Counted from the first letter of the stretch, positions 1 through 10,964 are shown. The stretch: DNA of 64,000 bases from Pseudomonadota bacterium (GCA_018241685.1 JAFEDJ010000019.1:1265-65264), one strand, 5' to 3'. The notes: generated from the letters alone by a model not told the origin. Numbers and translations are program-made.

Positions 1-1
1 T

Positions 2-166
2 AAGAAGCGAAACTTTGTCGCCGAACGCCTCACCGAGACGTTCCAGTTCTATCTGGACTCGCTCGGTGAACTTCTTTTGTTCGGGGGCATAGTCTTCAAA
101 AAAGTAATAGACAAACAACTTCGCTTCGGGCTCGACAGTCCCAAGGTACGTTTGTGTAACCCACAT
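2..166 (-). CDS. Hypothetical cassette protein, 5' part only (MWVTQTYLGTVEPEAKLFVYYFFEDY...), runs off the window
   Basis: ATG at 166 with GGAG 8-11 nt upstream; frame open to base 2; lies directly after the attC-like site at 191-259. Confidence 0.6.
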   Translation of the reverse strand, partial: MWVTQTYLGTVEPEAKLFVYYFFEDYAPEQKKFTERVQIELERLGEAFGDKVSLL

Positions 167-190
167 TATAACACTCCGATATGATATGAC

Positions 191-259
191 GCCCAATGTT
201 TGAATTCACCGGCCTTGCGCGGCTTTATGCGAAAGTTCCGGTGGAATGATGGTGCCTCA
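191..259 (-). mobile_element. Degenerate attC-like site 1
   Basis: Minus strand reads CCATC-ATTCCAC-CGG...TTCGCATAAAGCCGCGCAAG...CCGGT-GAATT-CAAAC-ATTGGGC. It is an imperfect palindrome with an L''/L' extra base; R' is ATTGGGC (GTTRRRY with G>A) and R'' is eroded. Confidence 0.65.
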
Positions 260-269
260 CTGGAAGGGG

Positions 270-1235
270 CTAGGAGTCAGCTTTGGGTGGCTTGGCTAGG
301 AAGTAGTCCAGACGGCCAATAGGCGAGTAAGGCTTCGCGAGCTTTATGACGGCCCACTTGCTGCCTGCATGAAACACACTCATGGCAGGAACTCGATACT
401 GCATCTCCCGAATCACCAAATGTTCTTTGGTGCCTAAGTCGCGAAGAATCCATTGTTCAAGATACTTGCGTGCTCCCACCTCGCCATCCAGCATGAAGTA
501 GATATTATCGAGGACGTCTTGTACGGTTGTGTCGGGGCCTATCTCGATGTGTTTCACACGTGGGGCTTCGGACTTCATATTGAGGTCTATGGCTACGTTG
601 TACCGGGCGTTGGATGCTGAGGGTAACGCGCCGTTGTCCGCCGTAGCGTTCATTACCTGCGCAAAGCGACGATCAAGATACTCTCGAAGCGTGTCCATCG
701 CCTGCGCGAGCGAAGGATTTGGAGGGGATGTAGACACAATCGCGTCATCCGACTTCTCCCGTGTGAGTGCTGCGACGGCTTCCTCTAGAACAGGGCGCGC
801 CATTCCCTCATCAAAAGGAATCTGATGCATGGCTAGGAGCTTCTCGGCGAAGCGCTTGAGTGAGTCGTAGTCTGCAAGTTGGAACGTCTGGTACATCGCG
901 AGAGGAAAGGGAACATCGGCAACGCTATCAATACCAACGCAGACAGGTATGACGGCACAGTTTATTTGTGCTGCTCCGAACCCTGCTTCGAACAACAGCC
1001 AAGGTCGGTTAACGCTCTGTGGAGTAAGCAGTACCACCAGCGCTCTGCTGTCAGCGATTTGACGGCGTATTTCGTCAAGCCAGACTTGACCAGGACGAAG
1101 CCCACCGCTGGGGCCATCATCAGAAGAGTGCCACACAGAAATTTGTCCGAGCGTGAGGCGCTGTACTGCTTGAGCAATGGCCTTTGCTCTCTCGCGATCA
1201 CGCGAGTCGTGACTGAGGAACAGTTTGTGAGGCAT
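270..1235 (-). CDS. TIR-domain protein (TIR_2-like) with a predicted C-terminal beta-grasp/ubiquitin-like domain
   Basis: N-terminal KLFLSH..RD, VW, ALVVLLTPQS..RPWLLFEAG with the catalytic Glu; C-terminal IEIGPDTTVQDVLDNI...WILRD...GSKWAVI resembles the ubiquitin strand-helix pattern. Confidence 0.8.
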   Translation of the reverse strand: MPHKLFLSHDSRDRERAKAIAQAVQRLTLGQISVWHSSDDGPSGGLRPGQVWLDEIRRQIADSRALVVLLTPQSVNRPWLLFEAGFGAAQINCAVIPVCVGIDSVADVPFPLAMYQTFQLADYDSLKRFAEKLLAMHQIPFDEGMARPVLEEAVAALTREKSDDAIVSTSPPNPSLAQAMDTLREYLDRRFAQVMNATADNGALPSASNARYNVAIDLNMKSEAPRVKHIEIGPDTTVQDVLDNIYFMLDGEVGARKYLEQWILRDLGTKEHLVIREMQYRVPAMSVFHAGSKWAVIKLAKPYSPIGRLDYFLAKPPKADS

Positions 1236-1310
1236 CGGTGGTCCAGTATAGAAAGTTCAGTATTTTCAGCTACTGCTTGTGCTGAAGTGCTACATCGATA
1301 TCCGGAAGGT

Positions 1311-1400
1311 GCATAGCGTTTTTGCATGTCCGAATTTCAAGTAATGCAGACAGCGTCGAGTCGGCCGGTTTTTTACTGGATGCAGCGGATGATCGGTCGG
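1311..1400 (-). mobile_element. Possible degenerate long attC-like site 2
   Basis: Minus strand ...ATCCG..CCAGTAA...TTACTTG..TCGGAC...CAAAAAC-GCTATGC; inverted arms AGTAA/TTACT and TCCG/CGGA; R' GCTATGC (GTTRRRY with T>C); lies between two cassette genes. Confidence 0.4.
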
Positions 1401-1577
1401 AGTCCGGGATTTGACCGAGAAACAGTAGAACATCAAGGACTGAGGATCGACTTCGCCGTGCATCGTTGCTGTGCCTGTAGTTCGGGGGATAAAGCTAGGA
1501 GAGGTGAATGGCCTGTTCGTTCACTGGGTACTGTATCAGTCGAGAGATCAATTACATTGTTGTATATAAGCCACGCT

Positions 1578-2135
1578 TCATATGGAATGACTTTCTGGAT
1601 ACCGGCTGTACAAGCGATTCTGCAAACGTGCTAGTTCCTTCATTGTTTTCATGTACTCCCGTTCGAGCTTCTTTGGCAGGGATATATAGCCGTGTTGGTC
1701 GGCCAGGTTGCCCGTGTTCAAGATTTCAAATCTTCTCTTGGCCAAGTAGAGGAAGCGGGTGACGTCGTGATCTTTGACGAGAGGCTGTCGGAGATTATCA
1801 ACCTGCCTTCCGATGTATTTTCTGTTTGGGTCAGGAAGGAAGGTGATGACATCAAACCGGCGCTCCCGAGAAGAAATGTCAATGTACTCGCCAGTTGGAC
1901 TTAACCAGACGGCATGAAACTCAGCCTCGATGAATACACCCGGACGCTCCCAGATGGCCCAGCCAATCACCTGTTCGCCACCAAAGGACGAGACGTGCCC
2001 TGGAAGGATAGAGAAGCACTCGTTCTCTGGTTGGTTTGGGGGTGGTTGGCAGACGACGGTCGCAGGTACTTGCTCGGGTACGATGCCACAACAAAACTCT
2101 CTGACATGCAGAGCATTAGCAGGGGCAGCACGCAT
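1578..2135 (-). CDS. Hypothetical protein with a transglutaminase/papain-like Cys-His-Asp motif set
   Basis: NECF (C40), GWAIW, AEFHAVW (H74), GEYIDI (D86); start moved to ATG 2135 because the track's start lies inside the attC-like site. Confidence 0.6.
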   Translation of the reverse strand: MRAAPANALHVREFCCGIVPEQVPATVVCQPPPNQPENECFSILPGHVSSFGGEQVIGWAIWERPGVFIEAEFHAVWLSPTGEYIDISSRERRFDVITFLPDPNRKYIGRQVDNLRQPLVKDHDVTRFLYLAKRRFEILNTGNLADQHGYISLPKKLEREYMKTMKELARLQNRLYSRYPESHSI

Positions 2136-2146
2136 AGGGAAATGAC

Positions 2147-2215
2147 CTCTATCATTTGACATGAGCGGCATGGTCGGGCTTGCCGGGACATATCCGCTCG
2201 ATGGAAGGTGGCGTC
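2147..2215 (-). mobile_element. Degenerate attC-like site 3
   Basis: Minus strand CCTTC-CATCGAG-CGGATATGTCCCGGCAAGCCCGACCATGCCG-CTCATG-TCAAAT-GATAGAG. It is a classic attC hairpin with the extra base in L''; R' is GATAGAG; it abuts the kwaB stop codon. Confidence 0.7.
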
Positions 2216-3128
2216 ACACTTGGGTTGCGTCTGGTACGTCGTAGATGAAGTCAGTGACTTCGCTTAGCAGTCGATGGTCAAGCAGTACTTGCATGATTGC
2301 TTTTGTCGTCTGGTCGCAAGGGACGAGTTGCCCTGTTTGTGGATCAAAGTTCAGCCCCCAGTTTCGTCGTGTGTTGACAGTTTGAACCGCATTGAGGAAG
2401 CCGGGGCGCCTAAAAAGCGCCCGCTCCTCAATTCGAGCCATGCGCCTTAGTTGAATCGAGTTCGTTCCAACGTGATCAATTAGAGGCTGCATGTTGGTAA
2501 ACAAGTTTGCAAAGTTCTGGTCTTGCTGAAGTCCAACGAAGGCCTGGGCATAAGAAGCCCGGTGCTCCATCGCCGACTCGAAGGCGCGTTTGCTCGCGAT
2601 GAAAAGGCCTTGCTGGTGTGCGTAAAAATCAAAGGTCTTCTCGATCGCAAAGGCGTTATCCTCAGCTGCAGACAACTCGCCATTTCGAAAAACGATGTTG
2701 ATATGTGTCTTCAGATATGAGGTCTTCCAGTTGCTCGCAGTCTTCTTGACGGCGTAGACGACTTGGCCATTGCAAACGAACTTAACAAGGTAGCCGCCCG
2801 CGTTCTTGAGATCCTTGATCGATTGGACTCGGCAGTCAGGCTCTGGGCGGTCGACTCGTGCCTTGAGGTACTCAAAGTCGCTGCCCGCTAATTGGGTGGT
2901 TAGACAGCTGTTTTCATTGTTTTGAGCGAGGTATGAGTAGGCTGCATACTCCGTAATTCGATTCACTTCGCTTCGCACTACACCAAGAAGCAATGCGTTC
3001 AGTGCTTCGTCAGTTTGAACGTAGTGCGCGGAAAATTTATATGCAGTAGAGCTTCGTTTGTAGACCCAAAGATGGATATGACTATTTTCAAAGTCGAATG
3101 CTCTAAGTGAAGCAAATGTTTGCTGCAT
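2214..3128 (-). CDS. kwaB: Kiwa anti-phage protein KwaB (DUF4868-like)
   Basis: 304 aa soluble protein with LW.YK N-terminus, FAIEKTFDF, FE..M..R and LRRMARI motifs; its ATG directly follows the TAG of the kwaA-like gene. Confidence 0.8.
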   Translation of the reverse strand: MQQTFASLRAFDFENSHIHLWVYKRSSTAYKFSAHYVQTDEALNALLLGVVRSEVNRITEYAAYSYLAQNNENSCLTTQLAGSDFEYLKARVDRPEPDCRVQSIKDLKNAGGYLVKFVCNGQVVYAVKKTASNWKTSYLKTHINIVFRNGELSAAEDNAFAIEKTFDFYAHQQGLFIASKRAFESAMEHRASYAQAFVGLQQDQNFANLFTNMQPLIDHVGTNSIQLRRMARIEERALFRRPGFLNAVQTVNTRRNWGLNFDPQTGQLVPCDQTTKAIMQVLLDHRLLSEVTDFIYDVPDATQV

Positions 3129-3713
3129 CTACTTGTCCCTGAGTATGTAGAAGTCTTGGACGGTCTGCCCCATCTGCTCACCGATCTCAAGGTTGCCGTA
3201 CTTAAGAACGCGAACATCCTTTTCTATGCCATTGATAACAATCGTTGCTTCGTACAGTTTCCACCCGAATATCAGAAGGAGCGGATTCATGAGGATTTGT
3301 CCCGACTTCAGTGTTATGGCAAACATCCAGAGTAGAAAGACTCCGAATCCTATGAGTTTCTGTGGATCACCGTAGGCTATTCCCATGAACGAAACAACGT
3401 ATGGGAAGGTATAGTTAATGATCTCGTTTGGTGTCGCCTTCATCCGCTTTACGTCTATCAAGAACGGACATCTAATTCTCAGAAGGGAACTCTTCGCGAG
3501 AAGCGTCGCCGCCGCAGTGACCGCTAGAAATGAGATGGATAAGACCGGGTTATCAAACGGTACGAACAGACATTCACTAGCTTTGAGGCTTGTGGTTGTA
3601 CAAAAAGGACGTGCCCACCACTGTGCCGATATGTCCTGCATCGCAAGAATGATCGCGAGTGGAAAGTAGGAGCCTAAGAAGATTAGGAGCCCTGGTATCA
3701 GGTGAAATTGCAT
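3129..3713 (-). CDS. kwaA: Kiwa anti-phage membrane protein KwaA
   Basis: About 4 TM segments; SYFPL, NYTFPYVVSF and NPLLLIFGWKLYE motifs; coupled to kwaB. Confidence 0.8.
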   Translation of the reverse strand: MQFHLIPGLLIFLGSYFPLAIILAMQDISAQWWARPFCTTTSLKASECLFVPFDNPVLSISFLAVTAAATLLAKSSLLRIRCPFLIDVKRMKATPNEIINYTFPYVVSFMGIAYGDPQKLIGFGVFLLWMFAITLKSGQILMNPLLLIFGWKLYEATIVINGIEKDVRVLKYGNLEIGEQMGQTVQDFYILRDK

Positions 3714-3758
3714 TGCAGGATGTTAATATTCAAGCGTGGTTCAGTGGTTGTTTGTGAT

Positions 3759-3826
3759 GTCCAACGTCTGAGTTTACTGGTCTGCGCGGTTTGTTGCGCA
3801 GGTCCGGTGGCGTGATGAGGTGGGGA
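3759..3826 (-). mobile_element. attC-like site 4 (intact GTT core)
   Basis: Minus strand CCCCAC-CTCATC-ACGCCAC-CGGACCTGCGCAACAAACCGCGCAGACCAGT-AAACT-CAGAC-GTTGGAC; same repeat family as site 1; R' is a perfect GTTRRRY. Confidence 0.7.
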
Positions 3827-3858
3827 TCGGTACGGAAAATTATTAGCCGTATACTTAG

Positions 3859-4341
3859 CTATTCATCAAAGCCATGAATAATTGACTTGGCAATACAGGT
3901 GCAATCGATGGCAACTCCTGGGAGTAGATAACCTGCTTCCGTAAGCAGCCCAAGGTTTGATTCGAATCGCTGACCAGAAAATCGGGCATGCGACGCATTG
4001 GGGTTGTTCTTCCTTAAACCGCAGGTGGTTGCTGTCCAAATGCATTTGGAAATGCCAAGGTCTTGTTTTCGTACTTGTTCTTTTCGCGCGGCGGCGATAT
4101 TGACGAAGTATCTGGATACAGCTGCGGCCTGACTCTTCTCCAGCTTGTAGCGTGCCGTAACTTCCTTTGCGAGCGAATGTAGATCTCGACCACATTCATA
4201 CACCAAAATACCAAATTCGCTTTTTTCGTCAAATTGAAGAAGAGAAAAATAATCCTTGGCTATCTGCACAGATTGCTCCGGCGAAACCTTGAGTCTCTCT
4301 TCAAAGTCTTTGGCAGTGTATGAAGGGTATCCATTTGGCAT
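3859..4341 (-). CDS. Hypothetical protein with a MuF/SPP1-gp7-like (phage minor head protein) C-terminal motif
   Basis: CIW.......H..FSGQRF...G......LPG..IDCTC...II matches the MuF pattern Y.W...H...G..F...PG..INCRC. Confidence 0.55.
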   Translation of the reverse strand: MPNGYPSYTAKDFEERLKVSPEQSVQIAKDYFSLLQFDEKSEFGILVYECGRDLHSLAKEVTARYKLEKSQAAAVSRYFVNIAAARKEQVRKQDLGISKCIWTATTCGLRKNNPNASHARFSGQRFESNLGLLTEAGYLLPGVAIDCTCIAKSIIHGFDE

Positions 4342-4664
4342 TCACAGTGCCTTTGCTTTTCGGAAGAATTTTAAGAACACGCGAACTCCAATATTTCAAG
4401 CCGACCGGGGGCTATCTCCAACGTAAACCTAATTGTCGCCTTCGTCATTCCACATATGTGGAGCTGGATTGATCCGTGGGGCGTTGCTGGCGCTCCGTCT
4501 TCATAAAGGCGTCAGTAACAAGGACTACAACCCGTCATCATCCGCCCGATTCTCACGTCTGCCGATTCTCAGCAGAATGGCATTTATCCTGTCAGTTTCA
4601 CTATGCACTGCGTCACTCGCGTGCTTCTCCACGGACTGCTTTGCTGCCCCATCAATCGTTCTAC

Positions 4665-4694
4665 TTGACGGTCGTCCAGCACTGGTTCGATACT
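4665..4694 (+). promoter_or_regulatory. Putative sigma70 promoter of the c4 operon
   Basis: TTGACG-N18-GATACT just upstream of the a1/b1 target region. Confidence 0.4.
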
Positions 4695-4757
4695 CCACCG
4701 CGTCACCTAAACAATGGTGATCGGGTGTAGGAACCCGGATTGCAAAGGCCGATGAAG

Positions 4758-4780
4758 GCCGCGTTTTGACGCGGCTTTTT
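4758..4780 (+). terminator. Rho-independent terminator between the a1/b1 sites and the c4 RNA
   Basis: GCCGCGT-TTTG-ACGCGGC followed by TTTTT. Confidence 0.7.
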
Positions 4781-4808
4781 CTTGTCGGAGTACGGTTGCG
4801 CCCTTTCA

Positions 4809-4888
4809 ATGGCGGGCCGTGCGGGGCAGCCGTGAGGCTGGCCGGTTCCTTTGCCCGGTATTCCTACCCCCGCACGGTTCCGCCGCCC
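4809..4888 (+). ncRNA. c4 antisense RNA (P1/P7 C4, P4 CI-like)
   Basis: Closing stem GGCGGGCCGTGCGGGG/CCCCGCACGGTTCCGCC; CAGCC-GTGA-GGCTG GNRA hairpin; exposed CCTTTGC (4848-4854) and TTCCTAC (4861-4867) are complementary to GTAGGAA/GCAAAGG upstream (4727, 4742) and downstream (4891, 4922). Confidence 0.8.
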
Positions 4889-4939
4889 CCGTAGGAAGGG
4901 GTGGCGGAGATGCAAATCGCAGCAAAGGAGCAACACCTC

Positions 4940-5050
4940 ATGACCATTCACGCCGAAGGGCGCGCAGACGTGCGCGTGCCGATTGCATCTGTTTCTTTCG
5001 CTTCACATTCAGCTCATTCGTCGCACGTGACGAGGAGGGCCAGGGCATGA
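4940..5050 (+). CDS. 36-aa peptide in the icd-like position after c4
   Basis: AAGGAG RBS overlapped by a c4 target; MTIHAEGRADVRVPIASVSF...; its stop overlaps the next ATG (ATGA). Confidence 0.5.
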   Translation: MTIHAEGRADVRVPIASVSFASHSAHSSHVTRRARA

Positions 5051-5334
5051 GCACGCCGATGCGCTTTCCCGCCCCCGCGAGCCCGATTTATGTTCTTGCC
5101 AGCGCGGCTGACGCGCTCGCCCTCACCGATCAACTCACCGCACGACAGGCTCAACTACAAGCGCTCCTTGCGATGACCCATGGCAACGCGGGGGATGTCT
5201 TCCGGCGCATGGATGTAGATTGCCAGGAGAACTACCTGTGGGCCTGCGCGATGATTGCGGGGGAGTTGCGGGAACTGATGGAAGCGATTCAGACTAGGTG
5301 GCGTGAAGAGAGGGCAGTGCACATCAAGGAGTGA
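5047..5334 (+). CDS. 95-aa helical hypothetical protein (QLQALL...QENYLWAC), c4-controlled
   Basis: ATGA coupling to the upstream peptide and GAGGAG upstream; corresponds to the 3' part of track ORF 4819..5334. Confidence 0.6.
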   Translation: MSTPMRFPAPASPIYVLASAADALALTDQLTARQAQLQALLAMTHGNAGDVFRRMDVDCQENYLWACAMIAGELRELMEAIQTRWREERAVHIKE

Positions 5335-5342
5335 TGGCGGGA

Positions 5343-5757
5343 ATGTTCATGTTGCCGCCCCCTTGATCATCGAGCGCTCGGCAACTTCTTGATAGCAGCC
5401 GGCAACATGCTTCGTTCACCCGGCAGGCAAGCATGTTGCCGGGTGAACATTCGATGTTGGTGCTGCAGCATTGAATACGCGCTTCAGCGCATTGAGTGCT
5501 CAGGTATCAATATTGAACATTCAATACGCTGATGGTTTATGTTCGGCCGTGAACATTGAATGTTAAGACCGCCGTATAGCATGTAGACGTCGCAATGATT
5601 GATGTTGCGACGTCAACTTTTTTCGTGGACAGCGACGCATGACATATGGAGCCGCTTACATCGAAAGCGCGGCCGTCAACATCGATGGAGGCGCCGGCAA
5701 CATTCGATGTTGCGCCCGCAACGATTCAGCCGCGGGTTTCATCGTTGATCAATGTTG
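5343..5757. repeat. Non-coding array of AACAT/ATGTT half-sites and nested inverted repeats
   Basis: 15 AACAT/ATGTT copies counted; GCAACAT-TCG-ATGTTGC at 5697-5713; 14-bp inverted repeat 5399-5412/5429-5442; 10-bp inverted repeat GACGTCGCAA/TTGCGACGTC at 5586-5614. Confidence 0.8.
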
Positions 5758-5819
5758 ATGGAATATACATCCCTTGTCATCATGCGTGCTCTGATTGAGT
5801 GGGCTCGAGGGAGAAGTCG

Positions 5820-8800: not shown

Positions 8801-10964
8801 TGCCGCGCCGAAGGCGACCAAGAGCCTGCCCAAGAAGGTGCGCCTGGTGGATCTGTTCTCCGGGCCGGTGCTGCTCAACGCGCAGGGCGAAGCCGAGATC
8901 GCCCTCGACGTGCCTGATTTCAACGGCACGCTGCGCCTGATGGCGGTGGTCGCGGCACCCGAGAAGTTCGGCAACGCCGAGGCGGAGACGGTTGTTGCCG
9001 CGCCGCTGGTGGCCGAGCTGATGACGCCGCGCTTCCTGACGGTAGGTGACAACGCCACCATCGCCCTCGACCTGCACAACCTGTCCGGTGCGGCGCAGAA
9101 GCTCAAGGTGCGCATCGAGAATGCGGACGGCCTGAAGATCCAGAACGCCGAGCGCGAGCTGGACCTCAAGGATCAGCAGAAGCAGACGCTGCGCTTCCCG
9201 CTCGAAGCGGGCAACGCCTTCGGCCTGACCGATGTGCGGGTCCACGTCAGCAGCGTTGCCGGCCTCAAGCTGGAGCGCAGCTTCGGCCTGCAGGTCCAGG
9301 CGGCGACGCCGCAACAGCAGGTGCTCAAGCTGCTTGCCGTCGGGCCGGGCGAGACGGTGGAGGTGAAGGACGCGGAACTGGGCGGCTTCATCCGGAGCAC
9401 CGTGCAATCGCATCTGGTGCTCTCCAACAAGGCGCCGATCGACGTGCGCAGCGCCATCCAGGGGCTGCTGACCTATCCCTACGGCTGCGCAGAGCAGACG
9501 ACCAGCACGGCCTACCCGCATGTGCTGATCGACGAGGAGGGGGCCCGGCTGTTCGGGCTCAAGGCCTACACCCGCGCGCAGCGGGAAGACATGCTGGAGA
9601 AGGCCATCGCCCGGCTTGGCGCGATGCAGGCGCCGAACGGCGGCTTCAGCCTGTGGGGCAATGTGTCCGAGTACCAGTACTGGCTGTCGGCCTATGTCGG
9701 CAACTTCCTGCTCGATGCCCGCGAACAGGGCTTCCAGGTGCCGGAGGCGATGCAGAAGAAGACCCAGGAATTCCTGCTCAAGTATCTGCAGGAAGGCGTG
9801 GCCGGTCTGCCGACCGGCAAGCTGAGCTACAACGAGAACGGCTGGCAGGATTACCGCTTCGGCGGTTCCGGCCGTTTCGGCGTGCTTGCCTACGGCGCCT
9901 ATGTGCTGGCTCGTGAATCCAAGGCGCCGCTGTCCACGCTGCGCCAGATGTTCGAGGTCCGCAGCCAGGCGCACTCGGGGCTGGCCCTGGTGCAGCTCGG
10001 CCTGGCGCTCAAGCTGATGGGCGATGAAACCCGTGCCCAGACGGCGCTCGCCGAAGGTGTGAAAAAGAGCCGTGACAATGGCTACTGGTGGGGTGACTAC
10101 GGCAGCCCGCTGCGGGATGCGGCGCTGTCCTACGCGCTGCTCGACCGCCACAAGGTGAAGGTCGACGGCCGTGACAATCTGGTTGCCGTTGCTGCCGCCG
10201 AACTGGGCAAGAACCGTTACACCAGCACCCAGGAGAAGCTCGCGCTGTTCCTGCTCGGCCGCAACTTCACCAAGGCCGGCGAAGGCGAGGGCGGGTGGAC
10301 GGCGGAAGTGCTCGGCAAGGACACGCCGGAAGTCATCAACGGTGCTGGCACGCTGATCCGGCCGCTGTCGGCAACGGCCTTGCAGGGCGGCGTTCGTATC
10401 CGGAACACCTACAAGGACAAGCTCTACCTGCAACTCAGCCTGAGCGGCAATCCGGCGAAGATGCCGGCCAACCGCGACGACGCCATCGCATTGAGCCGCG
10501 ACCTGTTCGAAGCCGACGGCACGCCGCTGAAGAGCCGCACGCTGAAGGTTGGTGAATCGGTCATCGTGCGCATCAAGGTCAATCCGCACAGCTGGGTCAA
10601 TACCGGCATGGTGGTGGACCACATCCCGGCCGGCCTGGAGATCGAGAACCTCAATATCGTCCAGGGTGAAGGCATGGGCAGCACGACGATCGAGGGCATC
10701 AACCCGGCCGAGGCGATGCAGGACCCGCGCATCCAGCACGTCGAGTTCCGCGATGACCGCTTCGTGGTGGCCGCCCGGCTGCACGGCAAGCTCAGCCTGT
10801 TCTACCGCGCACGGGTCGTCACCCCCGGCAAGTTCGTCTTCCCACCGCTGTACGCCGAGGACATGTACCGCCCGGATGTCTATGGCCTTAGCACTGGCGA
10901 GGCGACCCTGACGGTGAGCGACGGCAAGGACAAGCCGGCTGCCGCAGCGCCGGCCAAACCGTAA
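5820..10964 (+). CDS. yfhM: Bacterial alpha-2-macroglobulin (YfhM/MG2 family)
   Basis: About 1715 aa; YRPGE MG2 motif, VEEFLPERM, thioester motif YPYGCAEQ, C-terminal MYRP; paired with pbpC. Confidence 0.95.
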   Translation: MLRHLSRRGFGLVPLLLVLAALAAAGVFVAKTQQSDEAESVDGPFQIADFANRDFEGSPALALSFTHPMDARRDYDGAIQVFEMPPRTGEAKPHTQDDEDADNQGEGTPGSGNPQVSTAPADVAIDGGKLVKGAWVVGDNPRILYFPHIKPQTRYVVRVAAGLPSKAGQTLAEASSYSVVTAVVSPAYYFASRGMVLPAKQNGGLPVVTVNVPEVDVQFLRVKPDQLPRFLDKVISGPRPQRGKRQQNNDGYDYDEEYDGDEDWRATDLKGAIDNWSLDNLHSLTESVFTGRFLTEQKPNKRNVTFLPVEDIKELREPGIYIAVMSQPNRFRYDYQVTYFYVSDLGLSTRLFAKGADAYVSSLTTGKAMAGVEVAWMDENAKVLARAETDSNGRAPFAERPAAAKLILARNGQQISLIALKEPALDLSEYDIAGLPGRPVRLFAYSGRNLYRPGESFDLSVLARDADGRAVPPQPIQAILRRPDGKSQFTATWQPDGKLGGYYQNRIALPVDAPTGSWTLELRADPADKLATTSFRFGVEEFLPERMKLDLASKQATVSPNDTLTIAVKGAYLYGAPAAGNQLLGVAVFERQKNPLAQKLPGFEFGDTNEESQRQRVELDQSQLDENGELALDVDLAPAKDKRSPYTVRTTLSLLESGGRPVVRNFERVIWPAPVLVGVRPLFTGDYAREGSIAQFEVVRANAEGKLSAGSGLPVRLFRENRDYYWRFDDQRGWHSGFTETDELVNTASVSIPDGGRGKLGVPVKYGRYRLEITDPATQQTTKYRFYAGWSARGDETQGVRPDRVALKFDKPAYQDGETAKLSITPPHAGEALITVEADKTLWVRRIPVALDGTTVEIPVDKAWKRHDLYVSVSVLRPGSAGEKVTPARALGLAHLPLERGERKLAVSLDAPKKMLPDTRLKVKVKAPGAAGQQAVVTLSAVDVGILNITRYTTPDPHGHFFGKLRYGADQYDVYGRLIEKMGGQKGKLKFGGDAAPKATKSLPKKVRLVDLFSGPVLLNAQGEAEIALDVPDFNGTLRLMAVVAAPEKFGNAEAETVVAAPLVAELMTPRFLTVGDNATIALDLHNLSGAAQKLKVRIENADGLKIQNAERELDLKDQQKQTLRFPLEAGNAFGLTDVRVHVSSVAGLKLERSFGLQVQAATPQQQVLKLLAVGPGETVEVKDAELGGFIRSTVQSHLVLSNKAPIDVRSAIQGLLTYPYGCAEQTTSTAYPHVLIDEEGARLFGLKAYTRAQREDMLEKAIARLGAMQAPNGGFSLWGNVSEYQYWLSAYVGNFLLDAREQGFQVPEAMQKKTQEFLLKYLQEGVAGLPTGKLSYNENGWQDYRFGGSGRFGVLAYGAYVLARESKAPLSTLRQMFEVRSQAHSGLALVQLGLALKLMGDETRAQTALAEGVKKSRDNGYWWGDYGSPLRDAALSYALLDRHKVKVDGRDNLVAVAAAELGKNRYTSTQEKLALFLLGRNFTKAGEGEGGWTAEVLGKDTPEVINGAGTLIRPLSATALQGGVRIRNTYKDKLYLQLSLSGNPAKMPANRDDAIALSRDLFEADGTPLKSRTLKVGESVIVRIKVNPHSWVNTGMVVDHIPAGLEIENLNIVQGEGMGSTTIEGINPAEAMQDPRIQHVEFRDDRFVVAARLHGKLSLFYRARVVTPGKFVFPPLYAEDMYRPDVYGLSTGEATLTVSDGKDKPAAAAPAKP

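What the first reader, a model, noticed from the sequence alone, without database searches (positions are those of the whole stretch)
191..4341. Integrase-less attC cassette array loaded with defence-like cargo
Seen: four imperfect palindromes (191, 1311, 2147, 3759) separate co-oriented, lower-GC genes. Each has the attC layout on the gene strand, and sites 1 and 4 belong to one repeat family. No intI lies at the 5' end, where a c4 module sits instead. Known: Kiwa and TIR proteins are anti-phage. Inference: this is a CALIN-type defence bank, which makes the unannotated cassettes strong candidates for new defence systems.
Basis: partly seen in the sequence, partly recalled or inferred. Interest (0 to 1): 0.78.

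Follow-up and report, generated by a model that had tools for sequence, protein, structure and literature searches.

The report
Eroded integron cassette array carrying defence genes
This stretch of a Zoogloea-like sludge bacterium is the remains of an integron gene-cassette array with no integrase, carrying a Kiwa anti-phage system, a TIR protein and two unknown genes; its recombination sites are damaged, so it looks like a frozen relic and not a working cassette bank.

Summary
The core observation holds. Window 1-4500 is a low-GC, co-oriented (minus strand) gene array punctuated by attC-derived sites. Two covariance models built here from real integron attC sites find exactly three significant hits in all 64 kb, at 191-255, 2147-2213 and 3759-3825. 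All three lie on the gene strand, just 3' of a gene.

These sites belong to a large betaproteobacterial attC family (xxxxAAC-CCATC-ATTCCACCGG...CCGGTGAAT-TCAAAC-GTTxxxx). Within the 8-kb slices fetched, at least 20 of these loci also carry an IntI1-like integrase.

The 160-aa and 185-aa genes occur elsewhere as canonical cassettes with the same G|TT boundaries. No intI or intI fragment is found in the window.

- Site 2 (1311) is not an attC. It lies in the remnant of an IS5-family element.
- All three real sites have lost the near-invariant AAC/GTT pairing of the R box.
- A 94%-identical relative keeps the same gene order.

The array is therefore an eroded integrase-less attC cluster (CALIN), probably no longer recombining. 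KwaA, KwaB, the 185-aa gene and the TIR gene remain under purifying selection. Defence systems in integron cassettes, Kiwa included, are already published. This is a new member of a known kind, of modest interest.

The parts
2..166 (-). 5' part of the next cassette ORF (MWVTQTYLGTVEPEAKL...), cut by the window start
   Evidence: Translation. ATG at 166, 24 nt after the R' of S1. No Pfam or PADLOC hit.
191..255 (-). S1: attC of the TIR cassette. Family member with L boxes and central spacer intact, but R'' deleted and R' changed from GTT to ATT (ATTGGGC).
   Evidence: R1 60.1 bits, E 6.7e-16. R2 38.6 bits. nhmmer 7e-16. The bottom strand folds only the inner stem, -10.9 kcal/mol.
270..1235 (-). 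TIR-domain protein, 321 aa: N-terminal TIR_2 plus a roughly 190-aa C-terminal region with no family match
   Evidence: Pfam TIR_2 6e-13. Only weak PADLOC TIR-TM and ThsB hits. 80 full-length homologues. dN/dS 0.13 against L137.
1335..1538 (-). Remnant of an IS5-family insertion sequence (left end plus the first ~27 codons of the transposase). The lower limit is approximate.
   Evidence: blastn to L089. Local alignment and tblastn to the L089 DUF772+DDE_Tnp_1 transposase. Extra-depth contigs over 1378-1538 in sludge metagenomes. The small ORF here is not conserved in frame with L137.
1539..1546 (-). Remnant of the R'' box (CTCTCGAC; CTCTAAC in relatives) of the 185-aa cassette's own attC. The rest of that site is lost at the IS junction.
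   Evidence: Alignment with the canonical attC that follows the orthologous genes in L015 and L014.
1578..2135 (-). 185-aa protein of unknown function (phrog_37148 family)
   Evidence: 82 homologues. Found as a canonical cassette in L015 and L014, in prophages and a defence island. AlphaFold pLDDT 94 with no PDB fold match. dN/dS 0.20.
2147..2213 (-). S3: attC of the Kiwa cassette, with R' changed from GTT to GAT (GATAGAG) and R'' damaged
   Evidence: R1 21.8 bits, E 3.3e-4. R2 22.8 bits, E 8e-4. The same lesion is present in L137. L014 and L015 have GTTAGAG at the same cassette boundary.
2214..3713 (-). Kiwa anti-phage system: KwaA (3129-3713) and KwaB (2214-3128), two genes in one cassette
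   Evidence: PADLOC KwaA 2.1e-71 and KwaB 6.7e-123. Pfam KwaB 1e-38. dN/dS 0.11 and 0.21.
3759..3825 (-). S4: attC of the 160-aa cassette. R' is intact (GTTGGAC), R'' is changed from AAC to ACC, and the L-box pairing is eroded.
   Evidence: R1 27.8 bits, E 4.8e-6. R2 17.4 bits, E 0.023. Orthologous sites in L002 (68.4 bits) and L137 (33.8 bits, AAC intact).
3859..4341 (-). 160-aa protein, a MuF-like (phage head-morphogenesis) domain. The ancestral GTG start 39 nt upstream is cut off by an in-frame TGA.
   Evidence: Homologues of 173 aa at 65-86% identity. phrog_324 at 2.3e-8. Alignments. Pseudogene in L137.
4416..4435 (-). S5: 3' half-site only (CAATTAGG-TTTAC-GTTGGAG), marking the 5' boundary of the 160-aa cassette
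   Evidence: Aligned with the 3' half of the attC upstream of the orthologue in L002. Not detected by R1 or R2. Supported by synteny only.
4702..4890 (+). isrK-like element (4702-4781) and C4 antisense RNA (4805-4890), where attI and intI would be expected
   Evidence: Rfam C4 69.9 bits, above the gathering score. isrK 42 bits, below its gathering score of 50.

Best explanation
Window 1-~4440 is the 5' end of an integron cassette array that has lost its integrase and attI, a CALIN in IntegronFinder terms. It sits in a low-GC island of a Zoogloea-like Rhodocyclaceae chromosome, next to core genes (alpha-2-macroglobulin and pbpC).

It was assembled cassette by cassette by an integron integrase acting on attC sites of the common betaproteobacterial family. 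The cassettes, in order, are:
- a 160-aa MuF-like gene,
- KwaA-KwaB (Kiwa),
- a 185-aa gene,
- a TIR gene,
- at least one further cassette.

Since then the recombination machinery has decayed. Every recognisable attC has a lesion in the AAC/GTT core of the R box. One attC was destroyed by an IS5-family insertion that was later mostly deleted. The upstream end is truncated to a half-site that abuts an isrK/C4 module.

The genes now behave as an ordinary, vertically inherited and homologously recombining defence islet. Kiwa, the 185-aa gene and the TIR gene are kept by purifying selection. The 160-aa gene is decaying.

Shown: attC family membership, the cassette boundaries, absence of intI in the window, the lesions, the conserved order in one relative, and dN/dS.

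Inferred: that the lesions abolish IntI recombination, and that the cargo acts against phages.
For: 1. Family identity. Nearly all are Betaproteobacteria, with arrays of 8-11 sites per 8 kb in Methylotenera. IntI1-like integrases (45-64% identity) lie in at least 20 of these 8-kb loci, and 13 of the 16 I extracted are intact ORFs.

2. Model hits. Models R1 and R2, built from 41 and 142 of these sites, hit only 191-255, 2147-2213 and 3759-3825 in the 64-kb window. All are on the gene strand. Real but divergent attCs in true arrays score 16-31 bits with R1, so S3 and S4 fall within that range.

3. Cassette modularity.
- The 160-aa gene sits in a canonical attC array in L002. Homology starts at G|TT of the upstream site and ends at its own attC.
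- The 185-aa gene is a canonical cassette in L015 and L014, with the same 5' boundary G|TTAGAGGTCATT.
- The Kiwa homology with L135 spans window 3759-2211, exactly the interval between the R' of S4 and the start of S3.

4. Erosion.
- The AAC/GTT pairs are intact in 136-138 of 138 real sites but damaged in all three window sites.
- Bottom strands fold at -10 to -11 kcal/mol without an R helix. Canonical sites fold at -20 and -23 kcal/mol with one.
- There is an IS5-family remnant at ~1335-1538.
- S4 keeps AAC in L137 but not in the window.

5. Stability. L137 is 93.8% identical over window 4761-279 and has the same gene order. The S3 lesion is shared by both.

6. Selection. dN/dS is 0.11-0.21 for KwaA, KwaB, the 185-aa gene and TIR. 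The 160-aa gene is a pseudogene in L137.

7. No integrase. No intI at E<=10 in 64 kb.
Against: - I could not run IntegronFinder's own attC model. My models are biased towards this attC family, so the formal CALIN call is untested.
- The array runs off the window start. The source contig is 66,136 nt, so up to about 2.1 kb is unseen.
- An intI elsewhere in the genome cannot be excluded, and IntI tolerates much sequence variation.
- S4 keeps a perfect R' (GTTGGAC), and S1 keeps perfect L boxes and central spacer, so residual activity is possible.
- Some real family sites also fail to close the R helix in the minimum-energy fold (L002 and L015).
- Only one close relative (L137) was available for the order comparison.
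- Anti-phage activity of any gene here is inferred from homology only.
Confidence: 0.8

Rival explanations
1. An active CALIN 'defence bank'. The sites are still recombinogenic, and cassettes are mobilised in trans by an integron integrase encoded elsewhere in the genome.
For: - Three covariance-model-supported attC sites lie within 4 kb on one strand.
- Related Rhodocyclales carry complete integrons with the same attC family (L078 Propionivibrio, L089 and L042 Rhodocyclaceae).
- The literature says CALINs can be mobilised in trans.
- The window and L137 diverge exactly at S1, downstream of the TIR gene.
Against: - All three sites carry a lesion in the AAC/GTT core. [quoted passage not shown]
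- The gene order is identical in L137.
- The L137 breakpoint lies inside S1, after ...CATTC, and not at the G|TT crossover.
- The divergence jump between the two relatives lies inside the TIR gene at about 1080, which points to homologous recombination and not cassette exchange.
- An IS destroyed one site.
Confidence: 0.15
2. Not integron-related. This would be an ordinary defence island in a prophage or integrative conjugative element (ICE) remnant marked by the C4 module, and the intergenic palindromes would be REP-like elements or terminators.
For: - The C4/isrK module is phage-like and multicopy.
- The 185-aa and TIR families also occur in prophages and defence islands without attC sites.
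- The sites fold weakly as hairpins.
Against: - The sites match the integron attC family at E from 7e-16 to 3e-4, and that family lies next to IntI in many genomes.
- The orthologous 160-aa and 185-aa genes sit in canonical cassettes with identical G|TT boundaries.
- None of the sites is followed by a T-run.
Confidence: 0.03

Closest known systems
[quoted passage not shown] 2016, PMC4889954)
   Same: At least two attC sites less than 4 kb apart on one strand. Co-oriented cassettes that mostly hold unknown genes. No intI or intI pseudogene nearby. Chromosomal location.
   Different: The attC sites here are visibly eroded (R-box core lost). One was destroyed by an IS, and the 5' end is a half-site. 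IntegronFinder's own model was not run.
Sedentary chromosomal integrons of Betaproteobacteria (for example the Methylotenera arrays in L017, L055 and L083)
   Same: The same attC family: xxxxAAC-CCATC-ATTC(C)ACCGG...CCGGTGAAT-TCAAAC-GTTxxxx, 58-70 nt, with a bulged base in L''. The same cassette architecture.
   Different: Those loci have intI next to the array, many homogeneous sites and an intact AAC/GTT core. The window has none of these.
Integron cassettes encoding anti-phage defence (bioRxiv 10.1101/2024.07.02.601686; Kiwa in Xanthomonas cassettes, 10.1101/2025.06.18.660453)
   Same: Known defence systems carried as single cassettes, including a compact two-gene Kiwa system.
   Different: The host is an uncultured Zoogloea-like sludge bacterium. 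The array is degenerate, and nothing here has been tested against phage.
Inactivated Xanthomonas integrons and CALINs with stable arrays (10.1101/2025.06.18.660453)
   Same: Loss of integrase activity followed by frozen cassette order in related strains.
   Different: In Xanthomonas the inactivation is described at intI. Here the decay is documented in the attC sites themselves, and intI is wholly absent from the window.

Membership tests
attC recombination site | R'' (RYYYAAC) pairs with R' (GTTRRRY), with the AAC/GTT triplet conserved | tested here: not met
   S1: R'' is deleted and R' is ATTGGGC. S3: R' is GATAGAG. S4: R'' is CCCCACC. In 138 real sites the three triplet pairs are intact in 136-138.
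attC recombination site | L''/L' stem with an extrahelical base, and an unpaired central spacer between the R and L boxes | tested here: inconclusive
   S1: all 9 L pairs, the bulged C and the CCATC/TCAAAC spacers are present. S3: 8 of 9 pairs. S4: 4 of 9 pairs.
attC recombination site | Detected by an attC covariance model | tested here: met
   My own models R1 and R2, built from real integron arrays, give E values from 6.7e-16 to 0.023 for three sites. Nothing else in 64 kb scores below E 0.69. IntegronFinder's attC_4 model was not available.
attC recombination site | Lies at the 3' end of a cassette ORF on the coding strand, with cassette boundaries at G|TT | tested here: met
   S1 aligns from 14 nt, S3 from 0 nt and S4 from 33 nt after the stop codon. 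The boundaries are shared with orthologous cassettes in L002, L014 and L015.
attC recombination site | Recombined by an integron integrase | not testable with these tools
   Needs an IntI recombination assay.
CALIN | At least 2 attC sites within 4 kb and no integron integrase nearby | tested here: met
   The three sites are spaced 1.5-2 kb apart. No intI is found at E<=10 in the 64-kb window. At most about 2.1 kb of the contig is unseen.
Complete integron (sedentary or mobile) | intI, attI and the Pc promoter upstream of the first cassette | tested here: not met
   Upstream of the first cassette lie a half-site, the isrK/C4 module, a palindrome cluster and then core genes.
Kiwa defence system | Adjacent kwaA (multi-pass membrane protein) and kwaB (DUF4868) | tested here: met
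   PADLOC KwaA 2.1e-71 and KwaB 6.7e-123, both full length and abutting at 3128/3129. The NCBIfam equivalog cut-offs are not reached, so this is a divergent subtype.
Thoeris | A TIR protein (ThsB) together with a ThsA effector | tested here: not met
   Only weak ThsB hits (7e-4) and no ThsA-like neighbour. The TIR protein is not filed as Thoeris.

The most novel reading that the evidence does not exclude
The 185-aa protein may be a new single-gene phage-defence or counter-defence factor. It belongs to the phrog_37148 family and has a confident predicted fold with no PDB match. Its invariant residues include E-A-E-F-H, several W, and N/R/D. The family travels as an integron cassette, as a prophage moron and within defence islands. 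Here it is held under purifying selection between Kiwa and a TIR protein. The TIR protein, with its uncharacterised 190-aa C-terminal domain, may be a second new stand-alone TIR system.
Probability: 0.3. Interest if true: 0.5.

Novelty: new member of a known kind. Interest (0 to 1): 0.35.

Why it matters
- It is a worked example of how an integron array dies. The integrase and attI are gone, the R-box cores have mutated, an IS hit one site, and one cassette is turning into a pseudogene. The useful cargo (Kiwa, TIR, the 185-aa gene) is kept by selection.
- It shows that attC-like repeats alone do not make a working cassette bank.
- It flags one widespread, structurally unmatched protein family (185 aa) as worth a phage-challenge test.
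- It documents a very large betaproteobacterial attC family that can be used to harvest cassettes from sludge and freshwater metagenomes.

Tried and rejected
- The ungapped inverted-repeat finder did not report the sites, because their stems are bulged.
- Rfam has no attC family. The relaxed scan added only a sub-threshold isrK hit and weak chance-level matches.
- The IntegronFinder paper has no held supplement containing the model.
- A naive regex scan for AAC...GTT plus folding energy gave hundreds of chance hits and was abandoned.
- I first read 'CCGATCATCC...GAAATTCGGACATG' at 1311-1390 as a decayed family site. I rejected this once it aligned to an IS5-family transposase N-terminus (ADHPL motif) and no model detected it.
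- The 57-aa ORF at 1290-1463 was rejected as a gene, because its frame is not conserved in L137.
- tblastn of the window proteins against about 1 Mb of fetched integron arrays found no Kiwa or TIR cassette.
- The Kiwa relative L135 and the TIR relatives L136 and L138-141 have no detectable attC.
- Fold searches gave no PDB match for either unknown protein. There was one weak viral match for the 185-aa protein: a protein containing a GIY-YIG_COG3680 domain, TM 0.41.
- The plasmid collection has no match to 1236-1577.
- Contig-level read laying showed no cassette-excision joints in 1-4700. Contigs cannot show rare variants, so this says little.
Full report
**What is there.** The first ~5.7 kb of the window has 47-52% GC, against 60-70% for the rest. 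From 5799 onward the genes are core chromosome: a bacterial alpha-2-macroglobulin, PBP1C, CobW, CstA and a GyrB-like protein. Clusters at 90% identity around the CobW and PBP1C proteins carry the names Zoogloea sp. and Rhodocyclaceae, and the source contig is 66,136 nt long. The sequence is found at 100% in activated-sludge metagenomes.

Every gene in 1-4341 is on the minus strand:
- a partial ORF at 2-166;
- a TIR_2 protein at 270-1235;
- a 185-aa ORF at 1578-2135;
- KwaB at 2214-3128, abutting KwaA at 3129-3713 (PADLOC 6.7e-123 and 2.1e-71);
- a 160-aa ORF at 3859-4341.

On the plus strand lie an isrK-like element (4702-4781) and a C4 antisense RNA (4805-4890, 69.9 bits). A 95-aa ORF follows at 5047-5334. 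There are no tRNA genes in the window.

**Checking the palindromes.** As bare hairpins the four sites are unimpressive. DNA folding z-scores are -0.9 to -2.5, and the ungapped repeat finder missed them. Sites 1 and 4 are nevertheless about 75% identical over about 65 nt. On the gene strand they end in TCAAAC-ATTGGGC and TCAGAC-GTTGGAC, which looks like the L'-spacer-R' part of an attC.

The decisive evidence came from relatives. The 160-aa protein has 65-86% identical, 173-aa homologues in Methylobacter, Gallionellaceae and Desulfurivibrionaceae MAGs. In the Gallionellaceae contig L002 the gene sits in a row of small co-oriented ORFs separated by textbook attC sites, such as GCCCAAC...GTTGGGC. 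The site after the orthologue reads CCCCAAC-CCATC-ATTCGAG...CTCAATT-CAAAC-GTTATGC, which is clearly the intact counterpart of S4 and S1.

The 185-aa protein, at 83% and 76% identity, is likewise a canonical cassette in L015 and L014. Its 5' boundary G|TTAGAGGTCATT is also present in the window, where the GTT has become GAT.

**The attC family.** I scanned one genome per species for AACCCATCATTC-N25-55-TCARACGTT. Almost all are Betaproteobacteria: Methylotenera with 8-11 sites per 8 kb, Glaciimonas, Undibacterium, Thiobacillus, Rhodocyclaceae, Propionivibrio and Parazoarcus. A few are Gammaproteobacteria.

Thirteen of the 16 I extracted are intact ORFs.

**Covariance models.**
- Model R1 was built from 41 non-redundant family sites, with the R and L helices specified by hand.
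- R1 recovered 163 sites in 36 loci. These included divergent canonical attCs scoring 16-31 bits.
- Model R2 was built from 142 of those recovered sites.
- On that alignment the structure shows covariation. There are 197 double-sided changes against 72 +/- 6 in shuffles, and 83% of cells are paired against 17-51% when the partners are slid. This alignment was fitted to the model, so it leans towards the structure.
- The AAC/GTT triplet pairs are intact in 136-138 of 138 distinct sites.

**Result for the window.** With filters off, on both strands and over all 64 kb, each model finds exactly three hits below E=0.03:

| Site | Coordinates | R1 bits | R2 bits |
|---|---|---|---|
| S1 | 191-255 | 60.1 | 38.6 |
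| S3 | 2147-2213 | 21.8 | 22.8 |
| S4 | 3759-3825 | 27.8 | 17.4 |

All three are on the gene strand and begin 0-33 nt after a stop codon. The next best hit has E=0.69 with R1 and E=3.6 with R2. A sequence-only profile agrees.

**Site 2 is not an attC.** No model reports 1311-1380, even at E<=50. Laying sludge-metagenome contigs on the region showed extra, higher-depth contigs over 1378-1538. blastn then linked this stretch to L089. There it is the left end and the first codons of an IS5-family transposase (DUF772 + DDE_Tnp_1) inserted just after an attC. The window keeps MF-YCFSVKSRTPTDHPLHPVK, against MFHYFFSPESRVPADHPLRGVK in L089.

The IS remnant starts directly after CTCTCGAC (1539-1546). 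That octamer is the mutated R'' (CTCTAAC in L015 and L014) of the 185-aa cassette's own attC, and the rest of that site is gone. The small ORF in this spacer is not conserved in frame with L137.

It marks the 5' boundary of the 160-aa cassette. It is supported only by alignment with L002, L003 and L006.

**State of the sites.** Each of the three genuine sites has a lesion in the R-box core:
- S1 has lost R''. Where relatives read GGCTAAC-CCATC, it reads GGCA-CCATC, and its R' is ATTGGGC.
- S3 has R' GATAGAG.
- S4 has R'' CCCCACC, and five of its nine L pairs are broken.

The bottom strands fold only the inner stem, at -9.8 to -11.1 kcal/mol with z-scores of -1.2 to -1.6. Canonical family members L019 and L034 close the R helix at -19.7 and -23.3 kcal/mol, with z-scores of -4.8 and -6.4. 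Two other real sites do not close it in the minimum-energy fold either, so this test is supportive and not decisive.

**Relatives of the locus.** L137, a sludge-type Logan contig, aligns to window 4761-279 at 93.8% identity. It has the same order: (160-aa)-KwaA-KwaB-185-TIR.
- It shares the S3 lesion, so that lesion predates the split.
- Its S4 still reads TCCCAAC-CCATC (33.8 bits), so the S4 lesion arose on the window's lineage.
- In L137 the 160-aa gene carries in-frame stops. In the window it has lost its first 13 codons to a TGA that is followed by a new ATG.
- dN/dS between the two is 0.11 for KwaA, 0.21 for KwaB, 0.20 for the 185-aa gene and 0.13 for TIR.
- Divergence jumps from about 1.5% to about 14% inside the TIR gene near 1080. 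That is the signature of homologous recombination, not cassette exchange.
- The two sequences part company inside S1, not at G|TT.

At greater distances the units occur separately. Kiwa occurs alone in L135, with homology covering exactly window 3759-2211. TIR occurs alone in L136 and L138-141. None of these loci has a detectable attC.

**The cargo.**
- Kiwa is complete by PADLOC but falls below the NCBIfam equivalog cut-offs, so it is a divergent subtype.
- The TIR protein has a 190-aa C-terminal region with no family match, and no ThsA partner is present. About 80 full-length relatives exist, mostly on short environmental contigs.
- The 185-aa family (phrog_37148, 1.5e-34) occurs in a Polaromonas prophage, at the end of Klebsiella prophages, in a defence island next to TIR, restriction-modification, BrxR and caspase genes, and as integron cassettes. 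Its model is confident (pLDDT 94) but has no PDB match with E<0.1. It has one weak viral match.
- The 160/173-aa family matches the phage head-morphogenesis family phrog_324 at 2.3e-8. I read this as a MuF-like domain from recall of the motif W..TTCG...SH...PG..CxC. Its model is mediocre (pLDDT 73) and has no fold match.

**Interpretation.** However, it is an eroded one. The R-box cores are lost, one site was destroyed by an IS, and the 5' end is truncated against a multicopy C4 module. Gene order is stable in the one close relative, and one cassette is decaying. The useful genes persist under selection and now evolve by ordinary homologous recombination. I put about 0.8 on 'attC-derived CALIN' and about 0.65 on 'no longer recombinogenic'.

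**Comparison with what is known.** CALINs are common (PMC4889954). Defence systems in integron and CALIN cassettes were described in 2024: 783 complete systems in RefSeq cassettes (10.1101/2024.07.02.601686). Kiwa has been reported in Xanthomonas cassettes, where integrase loss also leaves stable arrays (10.1101/2025.06.18.660453). The finding is therefore a new member of a known kind. The main residual novelty is the 185-aa family and the TIR C-terminal domain.

**Limits.**
- IntegronFinder's own model could not be run.
- The left flank of the array and the rest of the genome are unseen.
- Only one close relative was available.
- No function was tested.

Noticed in passing
window 5340-5770: A cluster of at least six copies of a 13-bp palindrome (AACATTCGATGTT, AACATTGAATGTT, CAACATCGATG) lies between the C4-module ORF and the core A2M gene. 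It also holds a GGCAACATGCTT hairpin and a terminator-like hairpin at 5586-5614. It looks like an operator or iteron array.
   Followed up: partly
window 4702-5334: The isrK/C4 module and its 95-aa ORF are multicopy. Contig depth rises 2-5 fold here, and many alternative joints appear in sludge metagenomes. The exact 95-aa protein clusters with two proteins on a single Zoogloea sp. LCSB751 contig. Both Logan contigs, L001 and L137, break inside it.
   Followed up: partly
window 1335-1538: An IS5-family (DUF772/DDE_Tnp_1) left-end remnant sits inside the array. The same IS type sits directly after an attC in the Rhodocyclaceae integron locus L089 (6780-7949).
   Followed up: yes
window 279-1080 versus L137: Divergence between the window and L137 jumps from about 1.5% to about 14% inside the TIR gene, near codon 52. 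This indicates a mosaic allele produced by homologous recombination.
   Followed up: partly
window 4342-4380: The ancestral GTG start of the 160-aa gene (173 aa in relatives) is separated from the body of the gene by an in-frame TGA immediately before ATG 4341. In L137 the same gene has internal stop codons.
   Followed up: yes
L003 1-7000 and L004: A homologue of the 160-aa gene lies in a small-gene, HicB-rich array next to TniQ and a GAAD/GASH/DO-GTPase conflict system. This points to Tn7-like cargo adjacent to cassette-like genes.
   Followed up: no
L011-L013 (Klebsiella) 8817-10552: The 185-aa family member sits at a prophage end, after the tail-fibre genes. It follows a resolvase/invertase and a 184-aa partner of similar size, which may be a paralogous pair.
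   Followed up: no
L002 9300-14100: The Gallionellaceae contig carries its own integrase-less array of at least five canonical attC sites, between rng and ice-binding/PEP-CTERM genes. This is another CALIN, this time with intact sites.
   Followed up: partly
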